64,000 nucleotides of DNA, taken from NCBI RefSeq assembly GCF_044324875.1, contig NZ_CP172185.1, one strand, 5' to 3'. The translations under genes and the position numbers were made by a program. The notes below the pieces were generated by a model that saw nothing but the letters and a program-made list of their open reading frames with translations, made no database searches and had not been told where the DNA came from. Below, one piece after another: positions 3,945 to 26,447 of this stretch (its first letter is position 1; each line of letters begins with the position of its first letter). Origin of the DNA: Escherichia coli (GTDB lineage Bacteria > Pseudomonadota > Gammaproteobacteria > Enterobacterales > Enterobacteriaceae).

Positions 3945-4160
3945 GACTACGAAAGCCCGCTCCCCTGCGACCACTTTTATCATAGGAGTGTGGAAGCGCT
4001 TTTCCATCAATTGCGATGACGTCTTTATCATTTGATGAATGGCAATCTCGCATCCAGTTAATAAAGCATTCGTGAAATTATACTGAACGGATACAAGACA
4101 TAACTCTAATTATGGTGCCGTGAACAGGATTACCATTTTCAAAATTACGATATTATTTGC
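3945..4160 (-). pseudogene. Internally deleted remnant of an ISAs1-family (H-repeat) transposase gene
   Basis: About 200 nt align at roughly 80 percent identity with 6143-6345 of the intact transposase gene, preceded by a sequence resembling that gene's 3' end (gactacgaaagcccgctcccc versus attacgaaagcccgctcccc at 5379). No intact reading frame. Confidence 0.6.
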
Positions 4161-4177
4161 AGTAATTATGTTATTAA

Positions 4178-4690
4178 TCATTGTGATATTTCCATCTCTG
4201 TGATTAATACCGGATAAGCATTTAATTGCAGAGTTTGCACGAAATTATCGCAGATAACTGGCAATAACAATAACCCATCAGCCCGCTGCTGTAATACCTC
4301 CATTCGTTCTACTGATTCAACATTAACAACCAAACCAAGGGCATTTAGCGATTTAAGGATCTCCAGATGTTCACTCATCCAGCGCAGAGAAAAAGGATCA
4401 TCACCAATTATAAAAACAGGCCCCCAGCCGGTTAATAACTGGCGTTTCATTACGGAGCCAGGATGAAGTCGAGTACATATTACAGGAAATACCCCCTGTT
4501 GCGATGGTTCCGATGATGTGGATAATTCAGAAATATTTTCCATTGTTAGTGAAGAATTAACATCCATTAATAATGGTGAAACAACCTCACTTTCCTTGCT
4601 AGTAATGGCTGCACTAATCTGAAAGGAAAATAACAATATTATTACGTACAAACTTATTTTTAACATAACACATTCAATCCGTTTATTCAT
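4178..4690 (-). CDS. Hypothetical exported protein (N-terminal hydrophobic signal-like segment), AT-rich orphan
   Basis: 170-aa ORF with MLKISLYVIILLFSFQISA near the N-terminus; low-GC codon usage; no recognisable family. Start uncertain (4690 or 4666). Confidence 0.45.
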   Translation of the reverse strand: MNKRIECVMLKISLYVIILLFSFQISAAITSKESEVVSPLLMDVNSSLTMENISELSTSSEPSQQGVFPVICTRLHPGSVMKRQLLTGWGPVFIIGDDPFSLRWMSEHLEILKSLNALGLVVNVESVERMEVLQQRADGLLLLPVICDNFVQTLQLNAYPVLITEMEISQ

Positions 4691-4756
4691 GTTATAGAAT
4701 AATAATGCTATAAATCATCATTAATGTTCAATTATTTAATCACACAATTTAAAAAA

Positions 4757-5260
4757 TCATCGACCAATGTGAATTGGCAATGTACCACTCAAGTTAAAAT
4801 CACTGAATATTTTATCAATTTCTCTTGCAGTTTCTATATATTTAACCTCTTTCGTACTTGCATTATAAATAGCCCAAGCCTCGGGATGGGATGTTCCACC
4901 AAACCTTACAAAAAAACTTGATTTCATATTATTATATAAATTAACATCAGGAAAAGGATCTTCTCCAAAATTAGTAGTATTAAATAATGAAAGTTCGTAT
5001 CGCTTAGAAAATTCTGTTGGTAGGATAGCTTCACTGCCATCAATAGCATTCATCCAGAGTTTGTTACCATTATATTCCAACAATAATCTCTGTTTTGCAT
5101 GTGTCTTATCTCGTTCTTTAACGACAGCGAATACCTTTTTAACAACTTGCTGTGCGGATGGTCCTATTGTATTACCAAAAGCTGGCAACCCGATTTTGCC
5201 ATAAACACTCTCCTGAATGAAATAAATATCCGTTTTATCGGCCTCGACAATATCTACCAT
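4757..5260 (-). CDS. Hypothetical protein, AT-rich orphan
   Basis: 167-aa ORF on the same strand as, and immediately upstream of, the 170-aa ORF; no recognisable motif. Confidence 0.45.
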   Translation of the reverse strand: MVDIVEADKTDIYFIQESVYGKIGLPAFGNTIGPSAQQVVKKVFAVVKERDKTHAKQRLLLEYNGNKLWMNAIDGSEAILPTEFSKRYELSLFNTTNFGEDPFPDVNLYNNMKSSFFVRFGGTSHPEAWAIYNASTKEVKYIETAREIDKIFSDFNLSGTLPIHIGR

Positions 5261-5339
5261 TTATCCCTCCAAACAAGACCTGACTCCAGGACAAGAGCAT
5301 AGTGTGTAGTAAACACTTCATGCTCTTGCCCTGACCATT

Positions 5340-6560
5340 GAAATAACAACTTTCGTTTGTTTACTGTACCAGGGCAAGATTACGAAAGCCCGCTCCCCGC
5401 AAGGACTGACGCCAGGTAGTTTCTGTCCATGGCTGCTTTTCGCATCTTACGTCTTAACCCTGCCTTGAATACCTTATCATTCGTCAAAATATTAATAGCA
5501 ATGTGCCGTATCCCTGAAAATAATTCTGCTGCGTTTCCTCTTCTTATTTTGCAGTCGTCTTCATTCATTACCACGTCCAGACGCCAGTGCAGCTTATTCT
5601 CCACGTGCCAGTGGTTTCGGATTGCTGTGGCGAACTTCTCTGCGGTTAAATCAGCAGAACTGATATAATATCTGACCGTCATTTCGGGCTCTTTCTTTTG
5701 TTCTGCTATTATTGACCGAAAGGAGACTGCCACGCATAATTTCTTCAGACCTTTCCATTCAAACGTGAAATCAATAAGTTCATCAGGGACATCGCAAACA
5801 ATATGAAGACGGATTTCTTCTCTGCCGTGACTCTTTTCACTCATTGCGTAACTGTCATGCTCTGGATTATTTAATTCTTTCAGTGGGAATTTTTCCTCAA
5901 AGGCTTTATTAAGCCGCCCCTGATTTCCTTTTACAGCGAATAAATAATCACCGCCCTGTTTTTGTATCTTCTCTGCAATATCTTTCTGGCAACCCATCGC
6001 ATCAGTTGTGATGATTTTTCCTTTAATATCCAGCATGTTAAGAAGTTCTGGGATAGCTGTAATCTCATTGGATTTCTCATCCGTCTTGATCTGTCCGATG
6101 ACCAGGCTGTGCATTGTTGAGAACGCACTAATGACATGAATCGCTCCCCTGCGGCGACTCTTGTCATAAGAGTGCCGGAGCGTTTTTCCATCAATTGCGA
6201 TGACGTCTTTATCATCTGAAGTATGGCAGTCTCGCATCCAGTTAATAAAGCACTCGTGAAATTTTGCAGGACTGATACAGGATACAACTCTGGCGATGGT
6301 ATCGTGAACAGGAATACCATTTTCAAAATCACCGTATTGTTTTAAAAAATCGAGATGTGTTTCCCCAAAATCCTCTATATCTTCCCAACCTTCTGCACCC
6401 GAAATAACGGCACAAATAGTCAACAGTAGAATATCCGACAATTTATGTTCCACTTTCCAGGCTTGTCTGTAATCGGGAATAACAGAAATATGCTCCATCA
6501 ATTTTTAAGTTCCATTTTGTTCCCCTTAATTATGTAAGGAGTATTTGATCATGTATAAGT
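5340..6560 (-). mobile_element. ISAs1-family (H-repeat) insertion element; ends approximate
   Basis: Contains the intact transposase gene; element termini were not resolved, so boundaries are approximate. Confidence 0.5.
5380..6498 (-). CDS. ISAs1-family transposase (Rhs-associated H-repeat protein)
   Basis: About 372 aa from ATG 6498 (track begins at TTG 6501); sequence [46 protein letters not shown] ... [25 protein letters not shown] is characteristic of H-repeat / ISAs1 transposases. Confidence 0.85.
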
Positions 6561-6810: not shown

Positions 6811-7821
6811 TCAAGTAACAGGGATAAACTGACCATCAATCAGCGAAAATACCGGAGCGTAATACCCCATACGCTCTTCACCACTTTCATCTGTAAAACG
6901 GTAAGTCAGTGGGGAATATATTGGTTTCGATTTATTATATAGCTGCACCATACGTCCACCATTCATAACCCGGACGGCATAATCGTCCCACCTGATGGGC
7001 TGCATTCTGGCTTTCCCTCCCTCCACATTATCTTTTGAGAAGAGTGAGAGTAATATGTCATCCTCAGAGTCACCGGTTGTGGCTGACCATGCCTTCAGCG
7101 CCTCTTTGTTATAAGCTTTCAGACGTGCCCTGTCCCGGCTACTGATGATGCTTGCCATTTCGGTATAGGCGGCTTTTAACTTCCGTAACTGCTCGTCGCT
7201 TCCGGTATAGGGGGTTGCCCGCGTCCAGGCCCATTCAGGAAGCCCTGTCACGGTAACTTTTTGAGTGAACTGATACACCTTCATCCCTTTCGGGAAATAG
7301 GTTTCATCAAAATAATCTGGATCAATAAATCCTGGCTCCGCCTGCTCAGCCAAAATCTCTTTCCGGATAACGGGATGCACGCTGTCTGGCCGGGCTTCAG
7401 GTATGCCCTGCTGGTTGATGGTCACTTTTATTGAAGAAAGCAGCGTTTCCTCCTGTTTAATAAAACGAACCAAATCCAGGCTGCATCCTGCTTTTGGAAA
7501 AAAACGCCCCCGTTCTTCCATACTGGCAGGCTTGTCAGAAAACCATCCTAATGCCCCAATCTCCAGACTGATTTCATTTTCTCCATTCGCCATCAGCATC
7601 ATGGCATTGGTGCTGGATATGGCCCCGGTTGAATCACCATTTGCCCGCCAGGCACTTCTTCGGTTACTGAACCCGAGGACGCCATTAGTCTTAATGGCAC
7701 AATATGACTCTTCAATATTAAACTTACTGCGAATTTTTTGCTGGTTATCGTTAGAGCAAAATCCAGTTCCCATAACAACTCCTGACAGTAAAATAACCGA
7801 TATTAAATGTTTTGCCTTCAT
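6811..7821 (-). CDS. Signal-peptide protein, candidate immunity protein of the vgrG-linked cargo module
   Basis: 336-aa ORF starting MKAKHLISVILLSGVVMGTGFC (Sec-type signal, possible lipoprotein); last gene of the vgrG-adaptor-effector operon; AT-rich. The ORF is confident; the function is inferred from position only. Confidence 0.55.
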   Translation of the reverse strand: MKAKHLISVILLSGVVMGTGFCSNDNQQKIRSKFNIEESYCAIKTNGVLGFSNRRSAWRANGDSTGAISSTNAMMLMANGENEISLEIGALGWFSDKPASMEERGRFFPKAGCSLDLVRFIKQEETLLSSIKVTINQQGIPEARPDSVHPVIRKEILAEQAEPGFIDPDYFDETYFPKGMKVYQFTQKVTVTGLPEWAWTRATPYTGSDEQLRKLKAAYTEMASIISSRDRARLKAYNKEALKAWSATTGDSEDDILLSLFSKDNVEGGKARMQPIRWDDYAVRVMNGGRMVQLYNKSKPIYSPLTYRFTDESGEERMGYYAPVFSLIDGQFIPVT

Positions 7822-7887
7822 AATTATTCTCTCTCAAAAGGGGAAAATACTCATTATACTGTTCACTTTTAATTTCTGTAATATCAC

Positions 7888-9459
7888 TTAATAATCCATA
7901 CCTATCGTCCACGTTGTCACTGGCTTCGGCGGTGTTACTTTTTTCTCCACAGTGCGTTCTTTACCGTATAAATTAACCCGTAATGGTGAATCCTTTACCT
8001 CCATAGGATCACATAACTGCCACTCAACGGTATCTTTCTTCTCAGGTTTTTCGCTCTTTTCCTTCCCCTTTCCTTTTTCATCAACTTCACCATGAGACAC
8101 ATCAATCTTAAATTCAAACTTCCCTTTAATGCCGTCATGAAATAATGCTAGGTCCAGTCCGTCATCATGTGAATCAAATCCAAATCCAGCTTTCGCTTCT
8201 ATAGAGGCAGTCGCTTCGGCGGTCAGTTGTACAACAAAAACATTCGCCTCAAACGTCGCACTCACCACACCTTTTAAACCGAGCTTGATGTTACTTTCCT
8301 TTACATTAAACTCCCATTTTTTATCCTTTTCAGCGTATACTGCGCCAAGATCAAGATTAATCTCCGCTGAAATCTCGATATAGCATTCAACACTGGCTCC
8401 GTTTTTACGGAGATATTCACGACATCTGTTGACCAATGACTCGACTTTACAATATGCACATATAAATGAAATAATATCGAATCTGAACGACGCTTCAAAA
8501 AATGGGGCACCAAACAAACCATAAAAATGACAGGGGCCATCCTGGATATCGGTATATTGATAGGCATACGATATACCCAGTTTAACGGGTTCTATTTTTG
8601 CACTGAACAATGCATATTTGCGCGTACCATTATTATTGTCAGGATCTGGCGCAAAATATTTATTGACATTCTTGACCAGAGAGTCAATTCTTCCTATCTG
8701 TTCCAGTTGCTTTGTTTGTCGAAGTTTTTTTATCTCTTTTTCATATTCACTTGTGTGTTCAACATTAGCTATTTTTACGCCAAAATCGACAGTCAGGGAA
8801 GTCTTGTTTATCCACTCAAACTCAGCAGTGGTATTTGTCCAGCCGCTACGGAGTTTATTTTTATCCCTGGGCTTGGTGTTCTCCATTGCGTCCCTGGCTT
8901 TTATTCTTTCGTCACGCCGCTCTTTTACTGTTCTCGTCTGTTTTGATGACGAAATCTCATAGCTGAACCCTGTAGTAAACCTAATTTCCACTGTAGGATA
9001 AACATCAATTTCAACATAATTGCCACATTCGTAACAACTGTCAATTCTGACTGAATAATGGGCAGGTTCATAATGATTCTTAAGTGGAGAGGATATTGCC
9101 CCCAAATAATCCCATGGTACTCGAAATGTACCCATAGCAATTATTTCACCTTCAGACAAGTTATCATCCAAAGTGACCTTATTAGGTATTCCGAAAGGTT
9201 GCAGTATCTTATGATTATTTTCTGATTCTTCCTCTAACCATGCCTCATGTGTTCCACTTTTATCGCACTGGTAGGTAATGGTAATTATACCATCACATCC
9301 GGAACCATCATCCAGTAGCTTAAAACGCGCCACTCCTTCTTTTGACCAGAAATGTTTCTCGCCGGCCTCTGGAAAATCACTAATAACATCAAAAATACAT
9401 GGATCAGGAATGCCGCATTCCACACAGGGCTTTCCGGCTGTCGAAGATGGAGATGTCAT
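7888..9459 (-). CDS. Candidate T6SS cargo effector of unknown activity
   Basis: 523-aa ORF directly downstream of the DUF4123 adaptor; no signal peptide; about 13 cysteines including three C-x-x-C pairs (C12/C15, C142/C145, C334/C337); lysine-rich C-terminus; no G-x-S-x-G lipase motif found by eye. The ORF is confident; the function is inferred. Confidence 0.55.
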   Translation of the reverse strand: MTSPSSTAGKPCVECGIPDPCIFDVISDFPEAGEKHFWSKEGVARFKLLDDGSGCDGIITITYQCDKSGTHEAWLEEESENNHKILQPFGIPNKVTLDDNLSEGEIIAMGTFRVPWDYLGAISSPLKNHYEPAHYSVRIDSCYECGNYVEIDVYPTVEIRFTTGFSYEISSSKQTRTVKERRDERIKARDAMENTKPRDKNKLRSGWTNTTAEFEWINKTSLTVDFGVKIANVEHTSEYEKEIKKLRQTKQLEQIGRIDSLVKNVNKYFAPDPDNNNGTRKYALFSAKIEPVKLGISYAYQYTDIQDGPCHFYGLFGAPFFEASFRFDIISFICAYCKVESLVNRCREYLRKNGASVECYIEISAEINLDLGAVYAEKDKKWEFNVKESNIKLGLKGVVSATFEANVFVVQLTAEATASIEAKAGFGFDSHDDGLDLALFHDGIKGKFEFKIDVSHGEVDEKGKGKEKSEKPEKKDTVEWQLCDPMEVKDSPLRVNLYGKERTVEKKVTPPKPVTTWTIGMDY

Positions 9460-9480
9460 ATAATCTATCCGTTTGTCTTT

Positions 9481-10320
9481 TTATTGTGGGATAAATCCCA
9501 GTTCCTGTTGTGCAAGTTCATGTACCCGAATATGTCCCGGGTATGACTGATTGCTGAGTTGTTCATACCAGTCATCCGGAATATATCTGAGATCGATTAT
9601 ATTTTTTTTCAGTAATATAAGCGTCATTGTTCTGACGGAACGATCATCTGCTATATTTAATGACTGGCAAAAAGAGAAATAATCTTCTGCCAGAATTCGG
9701 GATGATTCAGCTTTTGATGAATCATCCCATCCGTTTTTATCTACATTTTCTTCGATAAATGCAGATAATATATCAAGATAATTATCCCGTGCCTTTCGTT
9801 CCAGTTGGCTATATTGTCTGTAACTCAGCGTCAGTTGTGATGGCCGTTCTGCCCTTATATTCATAGTTTCTGCGGGACGGACGGAAGAAAAATTATCCTC
9901 ACGACATTCTTCACCATAACGGGTACTTAGCTGTCTGACGGGACTGATAAAAGAAAGACGCTGGCGGGGGGTCAGAACTTCCACTAATACCCATATATTC
10001 CGGGGATCATAAAATCGCATGAGAACAGGTTTCTCCTGTTCGGGGATCCTAACCCACAGATAACGTCTGAAGTGTTGCTGTAGCTCACGCATGGATGACT
10101 CAGAAGTCAGATATATTCCCCATGGCGACGCCTTAACACTCAGCCATGCTTCAACCTCCGGAACGACTTCCACGAGATAGGGGGCTAGCGCGACCAGATC
10201 CAGTTGTATGGGTTCTGCATACAGACAACAGTGCGGGGGATTCACCTCGTTCAGAAAATCCAGCAATCCTTCCTCCACAGCGCCATCCACAATGGCGTAC
10301 TGCACGGGTGCCGTTTCCAT
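9481..10320 (-). CDS. T6SS adaptor/chaperone, DUF4123 (Tap) family
   Basis: About 279 aa with N-terminal YAIVDGA and LMRFYDPR motifs typical of DUF4123 adaptors; ATG at 10320 overlaps the vgrG TGA stop (TGATG). Confidence 0.7.
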   Translation of the reverse strand: METAPVQYAIVDGAVEEGLLDFLNEVNPPHCCLYAEPIQLDLVALAPYLVEVVPEVEAWLSVKASPWGIYLTSESSMRELQQHFRRYLWVRIPEQEKPVLMRFYDPRNIWVLVEVLTPRQRLSFISPVRQLSTRYGEECREDNFSSVRPAETMNIRAERPSQLTLSYRQYSQLERKARDNYLDILSAFIEENVDKNGWDDSSKAESSRILAEDYFSFCQSLNIADDRSVRTMTLILLKKNIIDLRYIPDDWYEQLSNQSYPGHIRVHELAQQELGFIPQ

Positions 10321-19024: not shown

Positions 19025-20317
19025 ATGGAACCACTTATGGCTGAGGAAAAACAGCAATCCCGCCAGGCCTCACTGACTTTACAGGTGATGAATGGCAACG
19101 AACTGGAAAGCGGACGCGCCGCAAAATGCCTGTTCAGCGAAAACGGCGGTGATATTGGCCATACGCCGGAATGTCACTGGCAGGTACAGGACCGGGCGGG
19201 AAGCATTGCTGCGCGTGCCTGTACCGTTATCCGGCACGACGGAGCCTATTGCCTGCGGTGCCTGACGCCGGGACTGATGATTAATCTGGCCCCGGTCTCT
19301 TCCGATGCGCTCATCCGCCTGCGCCAGGGGGATGAGATCCAGCTCGGCGCACTGGCGCTGAAAGTGTTTCTGCATGACGGTGTAGCTGTTATCTATGACG
19401 AGCGGATGGCGACCCCGGAAACGATTGTAATGAACCGCGACAGTCTGGCGGACACCCTGTTGACCACCGAGGGACAACCGGCGTATCCGGGAATGCCGTT
19501 CCAGCATCAGCTTGCCCCCACGGTTGCGCACGGTTTTTCCAGCGATCCGCTCCAGGCACTCCAGACGGAAAGCCTGATGGTGGCAGATGATCCGATCGCC
19601 CCACGCGTTTCCCGGCCCGTTGCCCCCGCCTCCGATCTGACAGGTGCAAACGGGATCAACACGCCGTTTATGGATCTGCCGCCCGGCAATGCCCGTCATG
19701 AGGACGGCGATGAATTTTCTGCCATGGCGCAGTACCACCTGGCCGTAACCCCGCTGCTGCGCGGTATGGAGTGTCCGCTGACGCTGCACAATTCTCAGGA
19801 TGCGGATGAGTTTCTCGAAGAGGCCGGACGGGCGTTGCAGGCCGCCATTAAGGGATTGCTGAGTCTGCAACAACAACAGAACAGCCTGTCGGATAAACAC
19901 CTGCGTCCACTGGAAGACAACCCGTTGCGCCTTGATATGGACTATCCCACCGCGCTGAACGTCATGTTCGCCGAGGGTAAAAGCCCGGTACATCTCGCCG
20001 CACCTGCGGCCATCGCCGAAAGCCTGCGCAACATCCGGCATCATGAAGAGGCCAACCGGGCGGCGATTGTGGAAGCGTTGCGTGTCATGCTGGACGCCTT
20101 CTCGCCGGGCAACCTGATGCGCCGCTTTGCGCAATACCGCCGCAGCCATGAGCTGCGCCAGAAAATGGACAACGCCTGGGCATGGCAGATGTACAGCAAC
20201 TATTACGATGAACTGGCCTCCAGCCGACAGCAGGGATTTGAAATGCTGTTCAATGAAGTTTATGCCCAGGTCTATGACCGGGTGCTGCGCGAAAAACAGC
20301 GGGAGCCGGAAGCATGA
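19025..20317 (+). CDS. fha: FHA-domain T6SS scaffold protein (Fha/TagH-like)
   Basis: About 430 aa from ATG 19025 (MEPLMAEEKQQ...); FHA-like N-terminal region; the track ORF (18929) is over-extended into tssG. Confidence 0.75.
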   Translation: MEPLMAEEKQQSRQASLTLQVMNGNELESGRAAKCLFSENGGDIGHTPECHWQVQDRAGSIAARACTVIRHDGAYCLRCLTPGLMINLAPVSSDALIRLRQGDEIQLGALALKVFLHDGVAVIYDERMATPETIVMNRDSLADTLLTTEGQPAYPGMPFQHQLAPTVAHGFSSDPLQALQTESLMVADDPIAPRVSRPVAPASDLTGANGINTPFMDLPPGNARHEDGDEFSAMAQYHLAVTPLLRGMECPLTLHNSQDADEFLEEAGRALQAAIKGLLSLQQQQNSLSDKHLRPLEDNPLRLDMDYPTALNVMFAEGKSPVHLAAPAAIAESLRNIRHHEEANRAAIVEALRVMLDAFSPGNLMRRFAQYRRSHELRQKMDNAWAWQMYSNYYDELASSRQQGFEMLFNEVYAQVYDRVLREKQREPEA

Positions 20318-22974: not shown

Positions 22975-25707
22975 ATGATCCAGATTGATTTAGCCACGCT
23001 GGTAAAGCGGCTTAACCCCTTTGCAAAACAGGCGCTGGAAATGGCTGCCTCGGAGTGTATGAGCCAGCAGGCCAGTGAGATCACCGTTGCCCATATGCTG
23101 TTGCAGATGCTGGTTATCCCGCGCAGCGACGTAAGGGTGATTGCCGAACGCACAGGCATCAGTGCGGAGGATTTACGCCAGGCGCTGACCGTGGAGAGTT
23201 ATCCCGGCGGACGTTCCGCCGAAGGCTATCCCAGCTTCTCCCCGATGCTGATCGAATGGCTCAAGGAGTCATGGCTGCTGGCCTCAGCCCAGATGCAGCA
23301 CAGCGAACTGCGCAGCGGCGTCCTGCTGCTTACTCTGCTGCATTCACCGCTGCGCTATATTCCACCCGCTGCTGCCCGTCTGCTGACGGCCATAAACCGT
23401 GACCAGTTACAGCAGGATTTCACCGCATGGACAAAAGAATCCGCCGAATCCGTGGATCTGGCTGGTGGGCAAGCGTTCCGTGCAACAGAAACCGGCGACA
23501 CCCTGCTTGCCCGCTATGCCAAAAATATGACCGAAGACGCCCGTAACGGAAAACTCGATCCGGTACTGTGCCGCGACCACGAAATCGATTTGATGATCGA
23601 CATTCTCTGCCGCCGTCGTAAAAATAACCCGGTGGTAGTGGGCGAAGCGGGCGTGGGCAAAAGCGCACTGATTGAAGGGCTGGCGCTGCGCATCGTGGCA
23701 GGCCAGGTGCCGGACAAGCTGAAAAACACCGATATCATGACCCTTGACCTGGGCGCATTGCAGGCCGGAGCGTCGGTGAAGGGCGAATTCGAAAAACGTT
23801 TCAAAGGGCTGATGGCGGAGGTCATTTCCTCCCCGGTGCCGATCATTCTGTTTATCGACGAAGCGCATACCCTGATTGGCGCGGGCAACCAGCAGGGCGG
23901 GCTGGATATCTCCAACCTGCTCAAACCGGCGCTGGCGCGTGGCGAACTGAAAACCATCGCCGCCACAACCTGGAGCGAATACAAAAAATACTTCGAAAAA
24001 GACGCTGCCTTATCGCGCCGCTTCCAGTTAGTTAAGGTCAGCGAACCTAACGCTGCCGAAGCGACGATTATTCTGCGTGGCCTGTCGGCGGTCTATGAAC
24101 AGTCTCACGGTGTGCTGATTGACGATGAGGCCTTACAAGCCGCAGCAACACTGAGCGAGCGTTATCTCTCCGGACGTCAGTTGCCGGACAAAGCGATTGA
24201 TGTGCTGGACACCGCCTGCGCCCGCGTGGCAATCAACCTTTCTTCGCCGCCGAAACAGATTTCGGCGCTGGCCACGTTAAGCCAGCAGCAGGAGACGGAA
24301 ATCCGCCAGCTTGAGCGCGAAAGGCGTATCGGGCTGCGTACCGATACCGCCCGGATGACGGAAGTGCTGGTGCAGTACGATGAAACACTGACGGCGCTGG
24401 ATGAACTGGAAGCCGCCTGGCACCAGCAACAGGCGCTGGTACAGGAGATTATTACGCTACGCCAGCAGTTACTGGGCGTTGCAGAGGACACAGATGCCGT
24501 AGTGGATACGCCGCCAGAGTCAGAACAGGATAATACTGGTGCCATACCGGCTGATGAAGCTGGCAGCGTACAGCCGGAAGAGACCGCTGAAACAGTTTCC
24601 CCGGTACAGCGGCTGGCACAGCTTACTGCCGAACTGGACGCCCTGCATAACGATCGGTTGCTGGTCTCTCCGCATGTCGATAAAAAACAGATTGCGGCGG
24701 TAATTGCCGAATGGACTGGTGTTCCGCTTAACCGCCTGTCGCAGAATGAAATGTCGGTCATCACCGACCTGCCGAAGTGGCTTGGTGACACCATCAAAGG
24801 CCAGGACCTGGCGATTGCCAGCCTGCATAAACACCTGCTGACCGCACGCGCCGACCTGCGCCGTCCGGGACGCCCGCTTGGCGCGTTTCTGCTGGCTGGT
24901 CCCAGTGGCGTGGGTAAAACCGAAACCGTCCTGCAACTGGCAGAGCTGCTCTACGGCGGTCGCCAGTACCTGACCACCATCAATATGTCCGAGTTCCAGG
25001 AGAAGCACACCGTCTCGCGGCTGATTGGTTCCCCTCCGGGCTATGTCGGCTATGGCGAAGGCGGCGTGCTGACTGAGGCCATCCGCCAGAAACCCTACTC
25101 GGTGGTACTTCTCGATGAAGTGGAAAAAGCGCACCCGGATGTGCTCAACCTGTTCTACCAGGCGTTTGACAAGGGCGAGATGGCGGACGGCGAGGGCCGC
25201 CTGATTGACTGTAAAAACATCGTCTTCTTCCTCACCTCCAACCTCGGCTATCAGGTGATTGTCGAACACGCCGATGACCCGGAAACCATGCAGGAAGCCC
25301 TGTATCCGGTGCTGGCAGACTTCTTTAAACCCGCCCTGCTGGCGCGTATGGAAGTGGTGCCATACCTGCCGCTGTCGAAAGCGACGCTCGCTACCATTAT
25401 TGCCGGGAAACTGGCCCGCCTGGATAACGTGCTGCGCAGCCGCTTTGGTGCGGACGTGATTATTGAACCGGAAGTGACGGACGAAATCATGAGCCGCGTC
25501 ACCCGCGCGGAAAACGGCGCGAGGATGCTCGAATCGGTCATTGACGGCGACATGCTGCCGCCGCTCTCGCTGCTGCTGTTGCAGAAAATGGCGGCTAACA
25601 CGGCGATTGCCCGGATTCGCCTGTCGGTGGCAGACGGTGCATTCACAGCAGACGTGGAAGATGTTCTGAACGACGAGTCCGTCACAGAGGATGAAACGGT
25701 TTTATGA
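22975..25707 (+). CDS. clpV: T6SS AAA+ ATPase ClpV (TssH)
   Basis: 910-aa ORF with two Walker A motifs (GEAGVGKS, GPSGVGKT) and a Clp N-domain; ClpB/ClpV family. Confidence 0.92.
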   Translation: MIQIDLATLVKRLNPFAKQALEMAASECMSQQASEITVAHMLLQMLVIPRSDVRVIAERTGISAEDLRQALTVESYPGGRSAEGYPSFSPMLIEWLKESWLLASAQMQHSELRSGVLLLTLLHSPLRYIPPAAARLLTAINRDQLQQDFTAWTKESAESVDLAGGQAFRATETGDTLLARYAKNMTEDARNGKLDPVLCRDHEIDLMIDILCRRRKNNPVVVGEAGVGKSALIEGLALRIVAGQVPDKLKNTDIMTLDLGALQAGASVKGEFEKRFKGLMAEVISSPVPIILFIDEAHTLIGAGNQQGGLDISNLLKPALARGELKTIAATTWSEYKKYFEKDAALSRRFQLVKVSEPNAAEATIILRGLSAVYEQSHGVLIDDEALQAAATLSERYLSGRQLPDKAIDVLDTACARVAINLSSPPKQISALATLSQQQETEIRQLERERRIGLRTDTARMTEVLVQYDETLTALDELEAAWHQQQALVQEIITLRQQLLGVAEDTDAVVDTPPESEQDNTGAIPADEAGSVQPEETAETVSPVQRLAQLTAELDALHNDRLLVSPHVDKKQIAAVIAEWTGVPLNRLSQNEMSVITDLPKWLGDTIKGQDLAIASLHKHLLTARADLRRPGRPLGAFLLAGPSGVGKTETVLQLAELLYGGRQYLTTINMSEFQEKHTVSRLIGSPPGYVGYGEGGVLTEAIRQKPYSVVLLDEVEKAHPDVLNLFYQAFDKGEMADGEGRLIDCKNIVFFLTSNLGYQVIVEHADDPETMQEALYPVLADFFKPALLARMEVVPYLPLSKATLATIIAGKLARLDNVLRSRFGADVIIEPEVTDEIMSRVTRAENGARMLESVIDGDMLPPLSLLLLQKMAANTAIARIRLSVADGAFTADVEDVLNDESVTEDETVL

Positions 25708-26447
25708 GCAGGTTGCGCGTTTTCCTGCAGACAGGATGGTTTATCGCGGGCCTGATGGCGGGCTTACCCGCCAGTGCCGCGCCCGCAGAAACATCGTCAA
25801 TGGCCGGTGTGGCGGTAGCCGCTGCAACAGCGACACCTTCGGATGCGGCAGCCACGTTACAGTCCATGCGGTCCTGTCGGCGGGAGCCTGCGGCGCTGGA
25901 GCGGCTTGACTGTTATGACCGCATTCTTTCGCCAGAGCAGCCAGCCTTTGGTGGGGCTGCACTGGTGAAAGCCCGTTACCAGGGCGAAGCCTGGACCCGC
26001 GCCACAGAGCAGGAAAAACGCCGCCAGGGCAATACCACAGGGCTGCTGGTGACGCAGGTGCCGGGTGAACGCCCGACGGTAGTGATAACCACCCCGGCTA
26101 TCGGCCATGTTCCGCCGCGCCCGGTGCTGATGTTCAGTTGCGTGGACAATATCACCCGGATGCAGGTGGCGCTGATGCACCCTCTGGATGTCCATGATAT
26201 CGCCGTCACCCTGAATGCCGACAGCCGGGCATTACGCAGCCACTGGTTTGTGCGCGAGAACGGCACCCTGCTGGAGTCCAGCCGGGGGTTATCCGGTATC
26301 GATGAAATTAAGCAACTGTTCGGCGCAAAAACGCTGACGGTGGATACCGGCACAGACAACGCCGCCGGAAAGCTGACCTTTAACATTGACGGGCTGGCAC
26401 GGGTTATTGCGCCGCTACGCGACGCCTGCCACTGGGCGGGAGAATAA
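25704..26447 (+). CDS. T6SS-associated VasI-like protein with signal peptide
   Basis: 247-aa ORF with N-terminal signal sequence; sits after clpV as vasI does in Vibrio-type clusters; ATGA overlap with the clpV stop. Confidence 0.6.
   Translation: MSRLRVFLQTGWFIAGLMAGLPASAAPAETSSMAGVAVAAATATPSDAAATLQSMRSCRREPAALERLDCYDRILSPEQPAFGGAALVKARYQGEAWTRATEQEKRRQGNTTGLLVTQVPGERPTVVITTPAIGHVPPRPVLMFSCVDNITRMQVALMHPLDVHDIAVTLNADSRALRSHWFVRENGTLLESSRGLSGIDEIKQLFGAKTLTVDTGTDNAAGKLTFNIDGLARVIAPLRDACHWAGE

What the first reader, a model, noticed from the sequence alone, without database searches (positions are those of the whole stretch)
19025..20317. FHA-domain protein present without a visible cognate kinase, phosphatase or TagF
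The island encodes an Fha-type scaffold but none of the ORFs in the window resembles a Ser/Thr kinase (PpkA), a PP2C phosphatase (PppA) or TagF. Either this system is not controlled by threonine phosphorylation, or the FHA protein binds a phosphothreonine made by a kinase encoded elsewhere.
Basis: partly seen in the sequence, partly recalled or inferred. Interest (0 to 1): 0.4.

Follow-up and report, generated by a model that had tools for sequence, protein, structure and literature searches.

The report
Kinase-less T6SS scaffold protein TagH
The gene encodes TagH, the known scaffold protein of an E. coli type VI secretion system of the Vibrio cholerae type, a type that never carries its own kinase; its FHA domain keeps the fold but has lost the residues that read phosphothreonine, so the missing kinase is expected.

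Summary
Window 19037-20317 (in-frame alternative start 19025) is tagH, inside the E. coli T6SS-2 island next to tRNA-Asp, and this part is 100% identical to E. coli 042. No Ser/Thr kinase, PP2C phosphatase or TagF is encoded anywhere in the 64 kb, by RefSeq annotation, Pfam and NCBIfam scans, and a six-frame kinase HMM that does detect YegI.

It is not new. Fha without PpkA, PppA or TagF is the recognised hallmark of the V. cholerae-type T6SS subgroup (Boyer 2009), and Wang 2022 names E. coli O157 explicitly. The E. coli cluster has the same gene order as the vas cluster.

What I add is that the FHA domain is a true FHA fold (pLDDT 95-98; TM 0.83 to Rv0020c FHA) in which every canonical phosphothreonine-contact residue is replaced:
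- Gly-Arg is G41-H42.
- Ser is A58.
- His is A61.
- The Asn loop is shortened to L-T-P-G-L.

None of 80 species-level orthologues keeps the Arg, and 85 of the 89 closest cluster representatives lack it. The four canonical representatives are the exceptions, and the three on long enough contigs carry PP2C and kinase genes beside tssM.

The most likely mechanism is a phosphorylation-independent assembly scaffold, as shown for V. cholerae Fha. Interest is low and the feature is already known.

The parts
19037..20317 (+). tagH (fha) CDS, 426 aa; an in-frame ATG at 19025 with AGGGA 9 nt upstream would add 4 residues
   Evidence: ORF list; RefSeq TagH WP_001306810.1; TIGR03354 at 419.5 bits; start region read
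19064..19381 (+). FHA-fold beta-sandwich, residues 10-115
   Evidence: AlphaFold2 pLDDT 95-98; best Foldseek PDB hits are FHA domains, 3poa/3po8 TMt 0.82-0.83, rmsd 2.5 A; Pfam FHA only 24.2 bits
19157..19162 (+). G41-H42, in place of the canonical Gly-Arg of the beta3-beta4 loop
   Evidence: MAFFT alignment with canonical T6SS Fha representatives and GarA; profile-to-PDB alignment against Rv0020c and GarA; 0 of 80 orthologues have Arg
19208..19219 (+). A58-A59-R60-A61, in place of the canonical Ser-Arg-x-His of the beta4-beta5 loop
   Evidence: A58 aligns with V. cholerae K54 and P. aeruginosa Fha1 S48 (PMC8993066)
19262..19276 (+). L76-T77-P78-G79-L80, the shortened beta6-beta7 loop with no Asn (canonical S/T-x-N-G)
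   Evidence: DSSP loop 76-80 in the model
19394..19711 (+). Disordered linker, residues about 120-225
   Evidence: pLDDT 35-63; the least conserved segment of the protein
19667..19681 (+). Conserved short motif F211-M212-D213-L214-P215 in the linker; M212 is the only candidate for an internal start and has a weak Shine-Dalgarno
19715..20302 (+). Helical C-terminal domain (T6SS_FHA_C), residues 227-422
   Evidence: Pfam 6.6e-41; pLDDT about 90-97; the most conserved part of the protein
19832..19867 (+). Leu-rich helix A266-L277 (ALQAAIKGLLSL); L267, L274 and L275 align with the V. cholerae condensate residues L334, L341 and L342
   Evidence: Alignment with the Vibrio-type representative P0144; G-L-L retained in all 80 orthologues; role of L341 from PMC13389060
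12499..33307 (.). T6SS-2 island core. Minus strand: hcp; its neighbours vgrG, a DUF4123 gene and two unassigned ORFs lie upstream at 6811-12278. Plus strand: tssB, C, E, F, G, tagH, tssJ, K, L, tssH (clpV), vasI, tssA, tssM, a VasL-domain gene and hcp. No ppkA, pppA, tagF or vasH
34760..34836 (-). tRNA-Asp (aspV), right-hand boundary of the island
   Evidence: ARAGORN; RefSeq

Best explanation
The gene is tagH (fha) of the E. coli T6SS-2 cluster, the orthologue of V. cholerae VasC/TagH/Fha. It has three parts: an N-terminal FHA-fold beta-sandwich, a disordered linker, and a helical C-terminal domain with a Leu-rich helix.

The FHA fold is intact, but its phosphothreonine-binding site has been replaced. 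I therefore infer that the protein does not read phosphothreonine and needs no cognate kinase, phosphatase or TagF.

By analogy with V. cholerae, it acts as a phosphorylation-independent scaffold. It concentrates membrane-complex and baseplate components, probably through condensate formation driven by the C-terminal helix, and so nucleates T6SS assembly. Control of the system would then lie at the level of expression and not in a threonine phosphorylation switch.

Shown here: the gene's identity, the fold, the residue substitutions, their clade-wide absence, the lack of kinase, phosphatase and TagF genes, and synteny with kinase-less clusters.

Inferred: the lack of phosphothreonine binding, and the scaffold or condensate mechanism.
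For: Identity and context:
- TIGR03354 at 419.5 bits and T6SS_FHA_C at 6.6e-41.
- The gene order tssBCEFG-tagH-tssJKL-clpV-vasI-tssA-tssM-vasL matches Vibrio-type and Pseudovibrio clusters and the VCA0107-0121 table in PMC2660368.

Fold:
- pLDDT is 95-98 for residues 10-115, and all of the top PDB hits shown are FHA domains.

Binding site:
- G41-H42, A58, A61 and the loop LTPGL replace G-R, S, H and S/T-x-N-G in two independent alignments.
- These loops are the most variable part of the domain among 81 sequences, the opposite of canonical FHA domains.
- None of 80 species-level orthologues keeps the Arg, and 85 of 89 closest 50%-cluster representatives lack it.
- Pfam FHA scores are 20-34 bits or absent for Arg-less proteins, against 54-68 bits for canonical T6SS Fha.

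Association with kinases:
- All three canonical representatives on long enough contigs have PP2C and Pkinase genes right after tssM.
- Five Arg-less representatives and the 80 genome loci have none within the DNA held.

Literature:
- V. cholerae has no ppkA or pppA. TagH is required for Hcp secretion, and no TagH phosphorylation was detectable. Its S38 and K54 occupy the positions of Fha1 R32 and S48 (PMC8993066).
- V. cholerae Fha works through condensates that depend on L341 (PMC13389060). The equivalent helix is conserved here.
- Fha condensates form independently of phosphorylation (10.1101/2023.12.21.572528).
Against: - No binding or genetic experiment exists for the E. coli protein, so loss of phosphothreonine binding is inferred from sequence alone.
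- In V. cholerae, S38A and K54A, which sit on the same face of the domain, reduce Hcp secretion. The authors read this as binding of a phosphorylated partner (PMC8993066).
- His42 could in principle contact a phosphate.
- E. coli does carry YegI and PphC elsewhere.
- The association between pocket type and kinase presence rests on only three informative canonical loci, and the flanks held are at most 10 kb.
- The internal start that produces the second Fha isoform in Vibrio is not evident in E. coli, so the V. cholerae mechanism may not transfer in full.
Confidence: 0.72

Rival explanations
1. TagH is still a phosphothreonine reader, and its ligand is phosphorylated by a kinase encoded outside the island, for example the Hanks-type kinase YegI with the PP2C phosphatase PphC.
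For: yegI and pphC are present in 5416 of 5426 complete E. coli genomes. V. cholerae TagH S38A and K54A reduce secretion, and a review suggests unidentified kinases (PMC8993066, PMC10482370).
Against: All four canonical contact residues are replaced, and the corresponding loops are unconstrained across 81 sequences. A58 is already the alanine that disables V. cholerae K54. yegI is core genome, whereas this tagH allele occurs in only about 10% of complete genomes (578 of 5426 by megablast). No TagH phosphorylation was seen in V. cholerae, and ppkA and pppA are absent from its genome (PMC8993066).
Confidence: 0.1
2. The remodelled FHA face binds a different, non-phosphorylated ligand, such as an acidic or hydrophobic segment of a T6SS component. 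The same surface would then still be the functional site, with altered specificity.
For: V. cholerae S38A and K54A phenotypes map to that face (PMC8993066). The A. citrulli FHA domain binds TssE and forms condensates (10.1101/2023.12.21.572528). Phospho-independent use of FHA domains is established for GarA with its enzyme partners (my own knowledge; the complexes appear).
Against: Loop residues on that face are not conserved, even between E. coli (H42, A58) and Vibrio (S38, K54), or among Enterobacterales. The conserved positions lie elsewhere: N19, L23-G26, W48, Q51-D52 and N83.
Confidence: 0.13
3. The FHA domain, or the whole gene, is a decaying relic with no function in this island.
For: The Pfam FHA score is weak. 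vgrG next door is flagged as truncated. T6SS loss is common in E. coli lineages (PMC10711316).
Against: The ORF is intact, and 549 of 5426 complete genomes carry it at 95% identity or more, every listed copy annotated as TagH. The fold is predicted with pLDDT 95-98. The FHA domain is more conserved than the linker. The orthologue is essential in V. cholerae (PMC8993066, PMC13389060).
Confidence: 0.03

Closest known systems
V. cholerae VasC/TagH/Fha (VCA0112), the kinase-less T6SS scaffold
   Same: Same position in a syntenic cluster (tssG-fha-tssJ). Same three-part architecture. No ppkA, pppA or tagF. Canonical Arg and Ser replaced. Leu-rich C-terminal helix conserved (PMC8993066, PMC13389060).
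   Different: About 35% identity to Vibrio-type representatives. E. coli has H42 and A58 where V. cholerae has S38 and K54, and A61 where Vibrio keeps His. The codon homologous to the internal start M262 is ATC (I207) in E. coli, and the nearby M212 has only a weak Shine-Dalgarno. The E. coli cluster lacks vasH.
P. aeruginosa Fha1, A. tumefaciens Fha, S. marcescens Fha and A. citrulli Fha (threonine phosphorylation pathway)
   Same: Same protein family (TIGR03354/COG3456), with an FHA fold plus T6SS_FHA_C, and a role in T6SS assembly.
   Different: These proteins keep Arg and Ser (Fha1 R32/S48; Atu R30/S46), which are needed for phosphothreonine binding, and they sit in clusters with PpkA, PppA and TagF (PMC3953482, PMC5995506, PMC6082577). 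Canonical representatives found here score 54-68 bits on Pfam FHA and have kinase and PP2C genes after tssM.
FHA-fold cytoplasmic domains of type III secretion ring proteins (YscD, MxiG, PrgH)
   Same: An FHA-like beta-sandwich used in a secretion machine without the conserved phosphothreonine-binding residues. This is from my own knowledge and was not tested here.
   Different: These belong to an unrelated protein family and are membrane-anchored ring components. Only the canonical T6SS Fha representatives gave weak Yop-YscD_cpl hits; the E. coli TagH gave none.

Membership tests
T6SS-associated FHA protein TagH/Fha (TIGR03354, COG3456) | Full-length match to the family model above its curated cut-off | tested here: met
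   TIGR03354 at 419.5 bits against a cut-off of 120.25, covering residues 13-418 and model positions 1-420 of 420
T6SS-associated FHA protein TagH/Fha (TIGR03354, COG3456) | N-terminal FHA fold plus C-terminal T6SS_FHA_C domain | tested here: met
   Pfam; AlphaFold2 model; Foldseek hits to FHA domains
T6SS-associated FHA protein TagH/Fha (TIGR03354, COG3456) | Encoded inside a T6SS core gene cluster | tested here: met
   Lies between tssG and tssJ
Canonical phosphothreonine-binding FHA domain (PF00498) | Eleven-stranded beta-sandwich fold | tested here: met
   TMt 0.83 and rmsd 2.5 A to Rv0020c FHA
Canonical phosphothreonine-binding FHA domain (PF00498) | Gly-Arg in the beta3-beta4 loop, where the Arg contacts the phosphate | tested here: not met
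   G41-H42; 0 of 80 orthologues have Arg
Canonical phosphothreonine-binding FHA domain (PF00498) | Ser-x-x-His in the beta4-beta5 loop | tested here: not met
   A58 and A61
Canonical phosphothreonine-binding FHA domain (PF00498) | Asn in the beta6-beta7 loop (S/T-x-N-G) | tested here: not met
   The loop is L76-T77-P78-G79-L80, one to two residues shorter and without Asn
Canonical phosphothreonine-binding FHA domain (PF00498) | Binds phosphothreonine peptides | not testable with these tools
   Needs ITC or fluorescence polarisation with purified TagH(1-120)
Threonine-phosphorylation-regulated T6SS (PpkA-PppA-Fha-TagF) | Hanks-type kinase PpkA in the cluster | tested here: not met
   No Pkinase hit in any scan or annotation; nothing in the six-frame HMM search, with YegI as positive control
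Threonine-phosphorylation-regulated T6SS (PpkA-PppA-Fha-TagF) | PP2C phosphatase PppA in the cluster | tested here: not met
   Same scans. The local PP2C HMM has limited sensitivity (PphC control E 0.3), but Pfam and RefSeq also find none
Threonine-phosphorylation-regulated T6SS (PpkA-PppA-Fha-TagF) | TagF repressor in the cluster | tested here: not met
   No TagF family hit in the Pfam or NCBIfam scans of T6SS and hypothetical ORFs; none in RefSeq
Threonine-phosphorylation-regulated T6SS (PpkA-PppA-Fha-TagF) | Phosphorylation of Fha or TssL is required for activity | not testable with these tools
   Needs Phos-tag gels or mass spectrometry, plus genetics
V. cholerae-type kinase-less Fha scaffold (condensate-forming, two isoforms) | Synteny with the vas cluster and no threonine phosphorylation pathway genes | tested here: met
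   PMC2660368
V. cholerae-type kinase-less Fha scaffold (condensate-forming, two isoforms) | Conserved Leu-rich C-terminal helix (V. cholerae L334, L341, L342) | tested here: met
   L267, L274 and L275 in ALQAAIKGLLSL; G-L-L retained in all 80 orthologues. The mapping goes through the Vibrio-type proxy P0144, not through the V. cholerae sequence itself
V. cholerae-type kinase-less Fha scaffold (condensate-forming, two isoforms) | Internal in-frame start codon with its own ribosome-binding site (V. cholerae M262) | tested here: inconclusive
   The homologous codon is ATC (I207). ATG M212 lies 5 codons downstream with a weak Shine-Dalgarno (duplex energy -3.6, against -7.4 for the Vibrio-type proxy)
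V. cholerae-type kinase-less Fha scaffold (condensate-forming, two isoforms) | Forms condensates that recruit T6SS components | not testable with these tools
   Needs in vitro phase-separation assays and imaging

The most novel reading that the evidence does not exclude
The TagH proteins of the whole V. cholerae-type T6SS lineage form a distinct pseudo-FHA subfamily. The lineage includes Enterobacterales, Pasteurellaceae, Vibrio, Pseudovibrio and Saezia. In this subfamily the beta-sandwich is retained as a phosphorylation-blind assembly module, and loss of the Arg/Ser/Asn pocket goes together with absence of PpkA, PppA and TagF. If so, the published reading of V. cholerae S38 and K54 as conserved phosphopeptide-binding residues, and the search for an unidentified kinase, would be misdirected. 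A different conserved surface (N19, L23-E24-S25-G26, W48, Q51-D52) would be the functional site.
Probability: 0.55. Interest if true: 0.45.

Novelty: already known. Interest (0 to 1): 0.22.

Why it matters
For the window itself it matters little. The gene is a correctly annotated TagH, every listed copy of this allele in complete E. coli genomes is annotated TagH, and the lack of a kinase is the textbook state of this T6SS subgroup.

The useful by-product is a sharper statement for the field. In kinase-less T6SS clusters the FHA domain has lost its phosphothreonine-binding residues. This argues against looking for a hidden kinase, and for treating Fha as a constitutive scaffold whose activity is set by expression and condensate formation. 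It also gives simple predictions that can be tested in E. coli T6SS-2 or in V. cholerae.

Tried and rejected
- **Single-sequence search of solved structures.** TagH gave only a chance ankyrin hit. The 90-sequence profile was needed to reach FHA structures.
- **Whole-window Pfam scan of every ORF of 100 aa or more, pasted into artificial proteins.** I prepared this and dropped it as too bulky. It was replaced by targeted scans plus local six-frame HMM searches.
- **Metagenomic context look-ups.** Several contigs were too short to be informative: P0211, P0181, and in part P0206 and P0182.
- **Genome collection scan.** It returned only the 80 closest loci (Enterobacterales and Pasteurellaceae), so it gave no canonical or Vibrio loci.
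- **V. cholerae sequence.** I did not obtain the V. cholerae TagH sequence. Mapping to S38, K54, M262 and L341 goes through Vibrio-type representatives (P0171, P0166, P0144) and the paper's stated equivalences.
- **Vibrio-type internal start in E. coli.** Not supported at the homologous codon.
- **Antisense ORF 19079-20149 (356 aa).** No family hit, so I treat it as not a gene.
- **Model coordinates.** They were not available to scripts, so residue equivalence rests on two sequence or profile alignments plus the model's secondary structure, not on a superposition.

Full report
**What is there.** The window is E. coli chromosome. Positions 13000-34000 are 100% identical to E. coli 042 (NC_017626.1 242836-263836) and to several other strains.

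The protein matches TIGR03354 over its full length (419.5 bits, cut-off 120) and Pfam T6SS_FHA_C (6.6e-41). It matches Pfam FHA at only 24.2 bits against a cut-off of 20.7.

It lies in the T6SS island between yafV and tRNA-Asp (34760-34836). On the minus strand, running away from the core genes, are hcp, vgrG, a DUF4123 gene and two unassigned ORFs. On the plus strand are tssB, C, E, F, G, tagH, tssJ, K, L, tssH, vasI, tssA, tssM, a VasL-domain gene and hcp. This tagH allele is found at 95% identity or more in 549 of 5426 complete E. coli genomes, and every listed copy is annotated TagH.

**Is a kinase, phosphatase or TagF really absent?** Yes.
- RefSeq annotation of matching genomes covers the whole 64 kb and names none.
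- Pfam or NCBIfam scans of all T6SS genes, all hypothetical ORFs and the long antisense ORFs give no Pkinase, PP2C or TagF hit.
- I built kinase and PP2C HMMs from T6SS-linked genes found in other loci and searched all 854 six-frame ORFs of 40 aa or more. I also ran phmmer with YegI and PphC. Nothing exceeded 8.5 bits.
- The kinase HMM detects the divergent E. coli kinase YegI at 1.7e-7, so that negative result is meaningful. The PP2C HMM is less sensitive.

**This is a known pattern.**
- Boyer et al. 2009 found that Fha co-occurs with PpkA, PppA and the TagF COG except in phylogenetic sub-group I. [quoted passage not shown]
- Wang et al. 2022 state that some clusters contain only the FHA gene without PpkA and PppA, "such as those of V. 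cholerae, E. coli O157, and Y. pestis" (PMC8993066).
- Pei et al. 2026 start from the fact that V. cholerae lacks the kinase (PMC13389060).
- The E. coli gene order is that of the vas cluster, apart from the missing sigma-54 activator vasH. It matches Vibrio-type and Pseudovibrio loci fetched here.

**The FHA domain keeps the fold but not the binding site.** An AlphaFold2 model built on 90 sequences gives three parts:
- a beta-sandwich at residues 10-115, with pLDDT 95-98;
- a disordered linker at about 120-225;
- a helical C-terminal domain at 227-422.

This is the same three-part layout described for A. citrulli Fha. All of the top Foldseek PDB hits shown are FHA domains; the best is Rv0020c FHA (3poa), with TMt 0.83 and rmsd 2.5 A.

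Two independent alignments place the canonical phosphothreonine-contact residues as shown below. One is MAFFT with GarA (sequence recalled from memory) and four canonical T6SS Fha representatives. The other is an HMMER profile of the family against Rv0020c and GarA sequences from the PDB.

| Canonical residue | Loop | E. coli TagH |
|---|---|---|
| Gly-Arg | beta3-beta4 | G41-H42 |
| Ser | beta4-beta5 | A58 |
| His | beta4-beta5 | A61 |
| S/T-x-N-G | beta6-beta7 | shortened L76-T77-P78-G79-L80, no Asn |

The literature ties these positions to function. Fha1 R32 and S48, and A. tumefaciens R30 and S46, are the phosphothreonine-binding residues needed for secretion (PMC3953482). V. cholerae S38 and K54 are stated to correspond to Fha1 R32 and S48 (PMC8993066). 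So E. coli H42 and A58 sit at those positions, and A58 is already the alanine that disables V. cholerae K54.

**How general is this?**
- Among the 89 full-length representatives closest to E. coli TagH in the 50%-identity library, 85 lack the Arg, mostly with Gly-Ser instead. Only four (P0211, P0244, P0255, P0262) have G-R, S-x-x-H and S-T-N-G.
- Among 80 species-level loci from Enterobacterales and Pasteurellaceae, none has the Arg. The Ser position is A, P, N, H, S and others, the His is A or Q in most, and no Asn is present.
- Across these sequences the three binding loops are the least conserved part of the domain. Conservation falls on N19, L23-G26, W48, Q51-D52, N83 and D99.
- Pfam FHA scores separate the classes. 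Canonical proteins score 53.7-68.3 bits. Arg-less proteins score 20.4-33.9 bits or give no hit. T6SS_FHA_C is at least as strong in the Arg-less proteins.
- Arg-less TagH also occurs in Vibrio spp., Pseudovibrio (Alphaproteobacteria) and Saezia (Betaproteobacteria).

**Association with kinases.** The three canonical representatives on long enough contigs all carry PP2C and Pkinase genes immediately after tssM. Five Arg-less representatives lie in vas-type clusters with no such genes in the DNA held. The 80 genome loci likewise gave no hit to the local kinase and PP2C HMMs. The canonical sample is small and the flanks are at most 10 kb, so this is an association and not a census.

**A kinase elsewhere?** E. 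coli K-12 has the Hanks-type kinase YegI and the PP2C phosphatase PphC. The region is present in 5416 of 5426 complete genomes, so it is core genome, whereas the T6SS-2 island is accessory. Their existence means the kinase-elsewhere idea cannot be excluded on grounds of absence. It is the missing binding residues that make it unlikely.

**Most likely mechanism.** TagH is a phosphorylation-independent scaffold that nucleates T6SS assembly, as in V. cholerae.
- V. cholerae Fha is essential and not detectably phosphorylated. It forms condensates through a C-terminal Leu-rich helix (L334, L341, L342) and recruits membrane-complex and baseplate proteins (PMC8993066, PMC13389060).
- The E. coli protein has the same helix (A266-L277, ALQAAIKGLLSL). 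Its G-L-L core is retained in all 80 orthologues.
- These functional steps are inferred by homology and are not shown for E. coli.

**The second Fha isoform.** V. cholerae makes a short isoform from an internal start at M262. That Met sits in a motif M-D-x-x-x-[LMIV]-[DE]-L.
- In the E. coli clade the homologous codon is ATC, CTG or ATT (0 of 32 are ATG). A Met five codons downstream (M212) has only a weak Shine-Dalgarno.
- In 49 more distant species (Photorhabdus, Xenorhabdus, Yersinia, Serratia, Proteus, Morganella and others) the homologous codon is ATG in 42 of 49. It is preceded by a purine-rich Shine-Dalgarno-like run that is kept at the nucleotide level while the encoded residues differ. 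The median duplex energy is -5.8 against -1.7 for background codons (the p-value is not corrected for relatedness).
- The two-isoform arrangement may therefore reach beyond Vibrio, but it is doubtful for this gene.

**Verdict.** The feature is an already known gene in an already known configuration. The residue-level degeneracy of the FHA pocket across the kinase-less lineage is, as far as the searched literature shows, not stated explicitly. Wang et al. even call the substituted positions conserved. It is a modest but testable refinement.

Noticed in passing
window 19652-19681 (TagH residues 206-215); loci L040-L088: The Vibrio Fha internal start (M262) maps to E. coli I207 (ATC). In 42 of 49 more distant Enterobacterales and Pasteurellaceae species that codon is ATG. 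It is preceded by a Shine-Dalgarno-like run kept at the nucleotide level while the amino acids vary (R-G, K-D, Q-G). The dual-isoform arrangement may therefore extend beyond Vibrio. The E. coli clade instead has M212 with a weak Shine-Dalgarno.
   Followed up: partly
window 19667-19681: A short motif [FY]-[MLIV]-[DE]-L-P (FMDLP in E. coli) is conserved in all 80 orthologues, inside the otherwise poorly conserved, disordered linker of TagH. It is a candidate docking motif.
   Followed up: partly
window 19091-19114 and 19178-19192 (TagH N19, L23-G26, W48, Q51-D52): These FHA-domain positions are nearly invariant in the Arg-less clade, while the classical binding loops vary. They may mark the surface actually used.
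   Followed up: no
window 6811-12278 (- strand): vgrG (10320-12278) is flagged in RefSeq as a truncated pseudogene. Downstream lie a DUF4123 adaptor (9481-10323), which hits the Tle1 chaperone Tla1 weakly and below cut-off, and two ORFs of 523 and 336 aa with no Pfam or NCBIfam family. These are probably an effector and immunity pair.
   Followed up: partly
window 3958-6501: The left edge of the island carries ISAs1/ISEc1 transposase genes and an ICE-type PFL_4695 (DUF2859) protein. E. coli 042 has an extra group II intron (ltrA) and further IS fragments here that the window lacks.
   Followed up: no
window 25704-26447 versus loci L003 and L093: The E. coli cluster has no sigma-54 activator vasH between clpV and vasI, unlike the Vibrio-type and Pseudovibrio clusters. 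Its transcriptional control must therefore differ.
   Followed up: no
window 33647-34432 (- strand): A 261-aa ORF between the second hcp and tRNA-Asp has no Pfam or NCBIfam hit. It is annotated as hypothetical.
   Followed up: partly
window 31452-32810: The VasL-domain protein combines ImpA_N with VasL and hits the TssA models only below their cut-offs. This is the same domain pair as V. cholerae VCA0121 (TagA, from my own knowledge).
   Followed up: no
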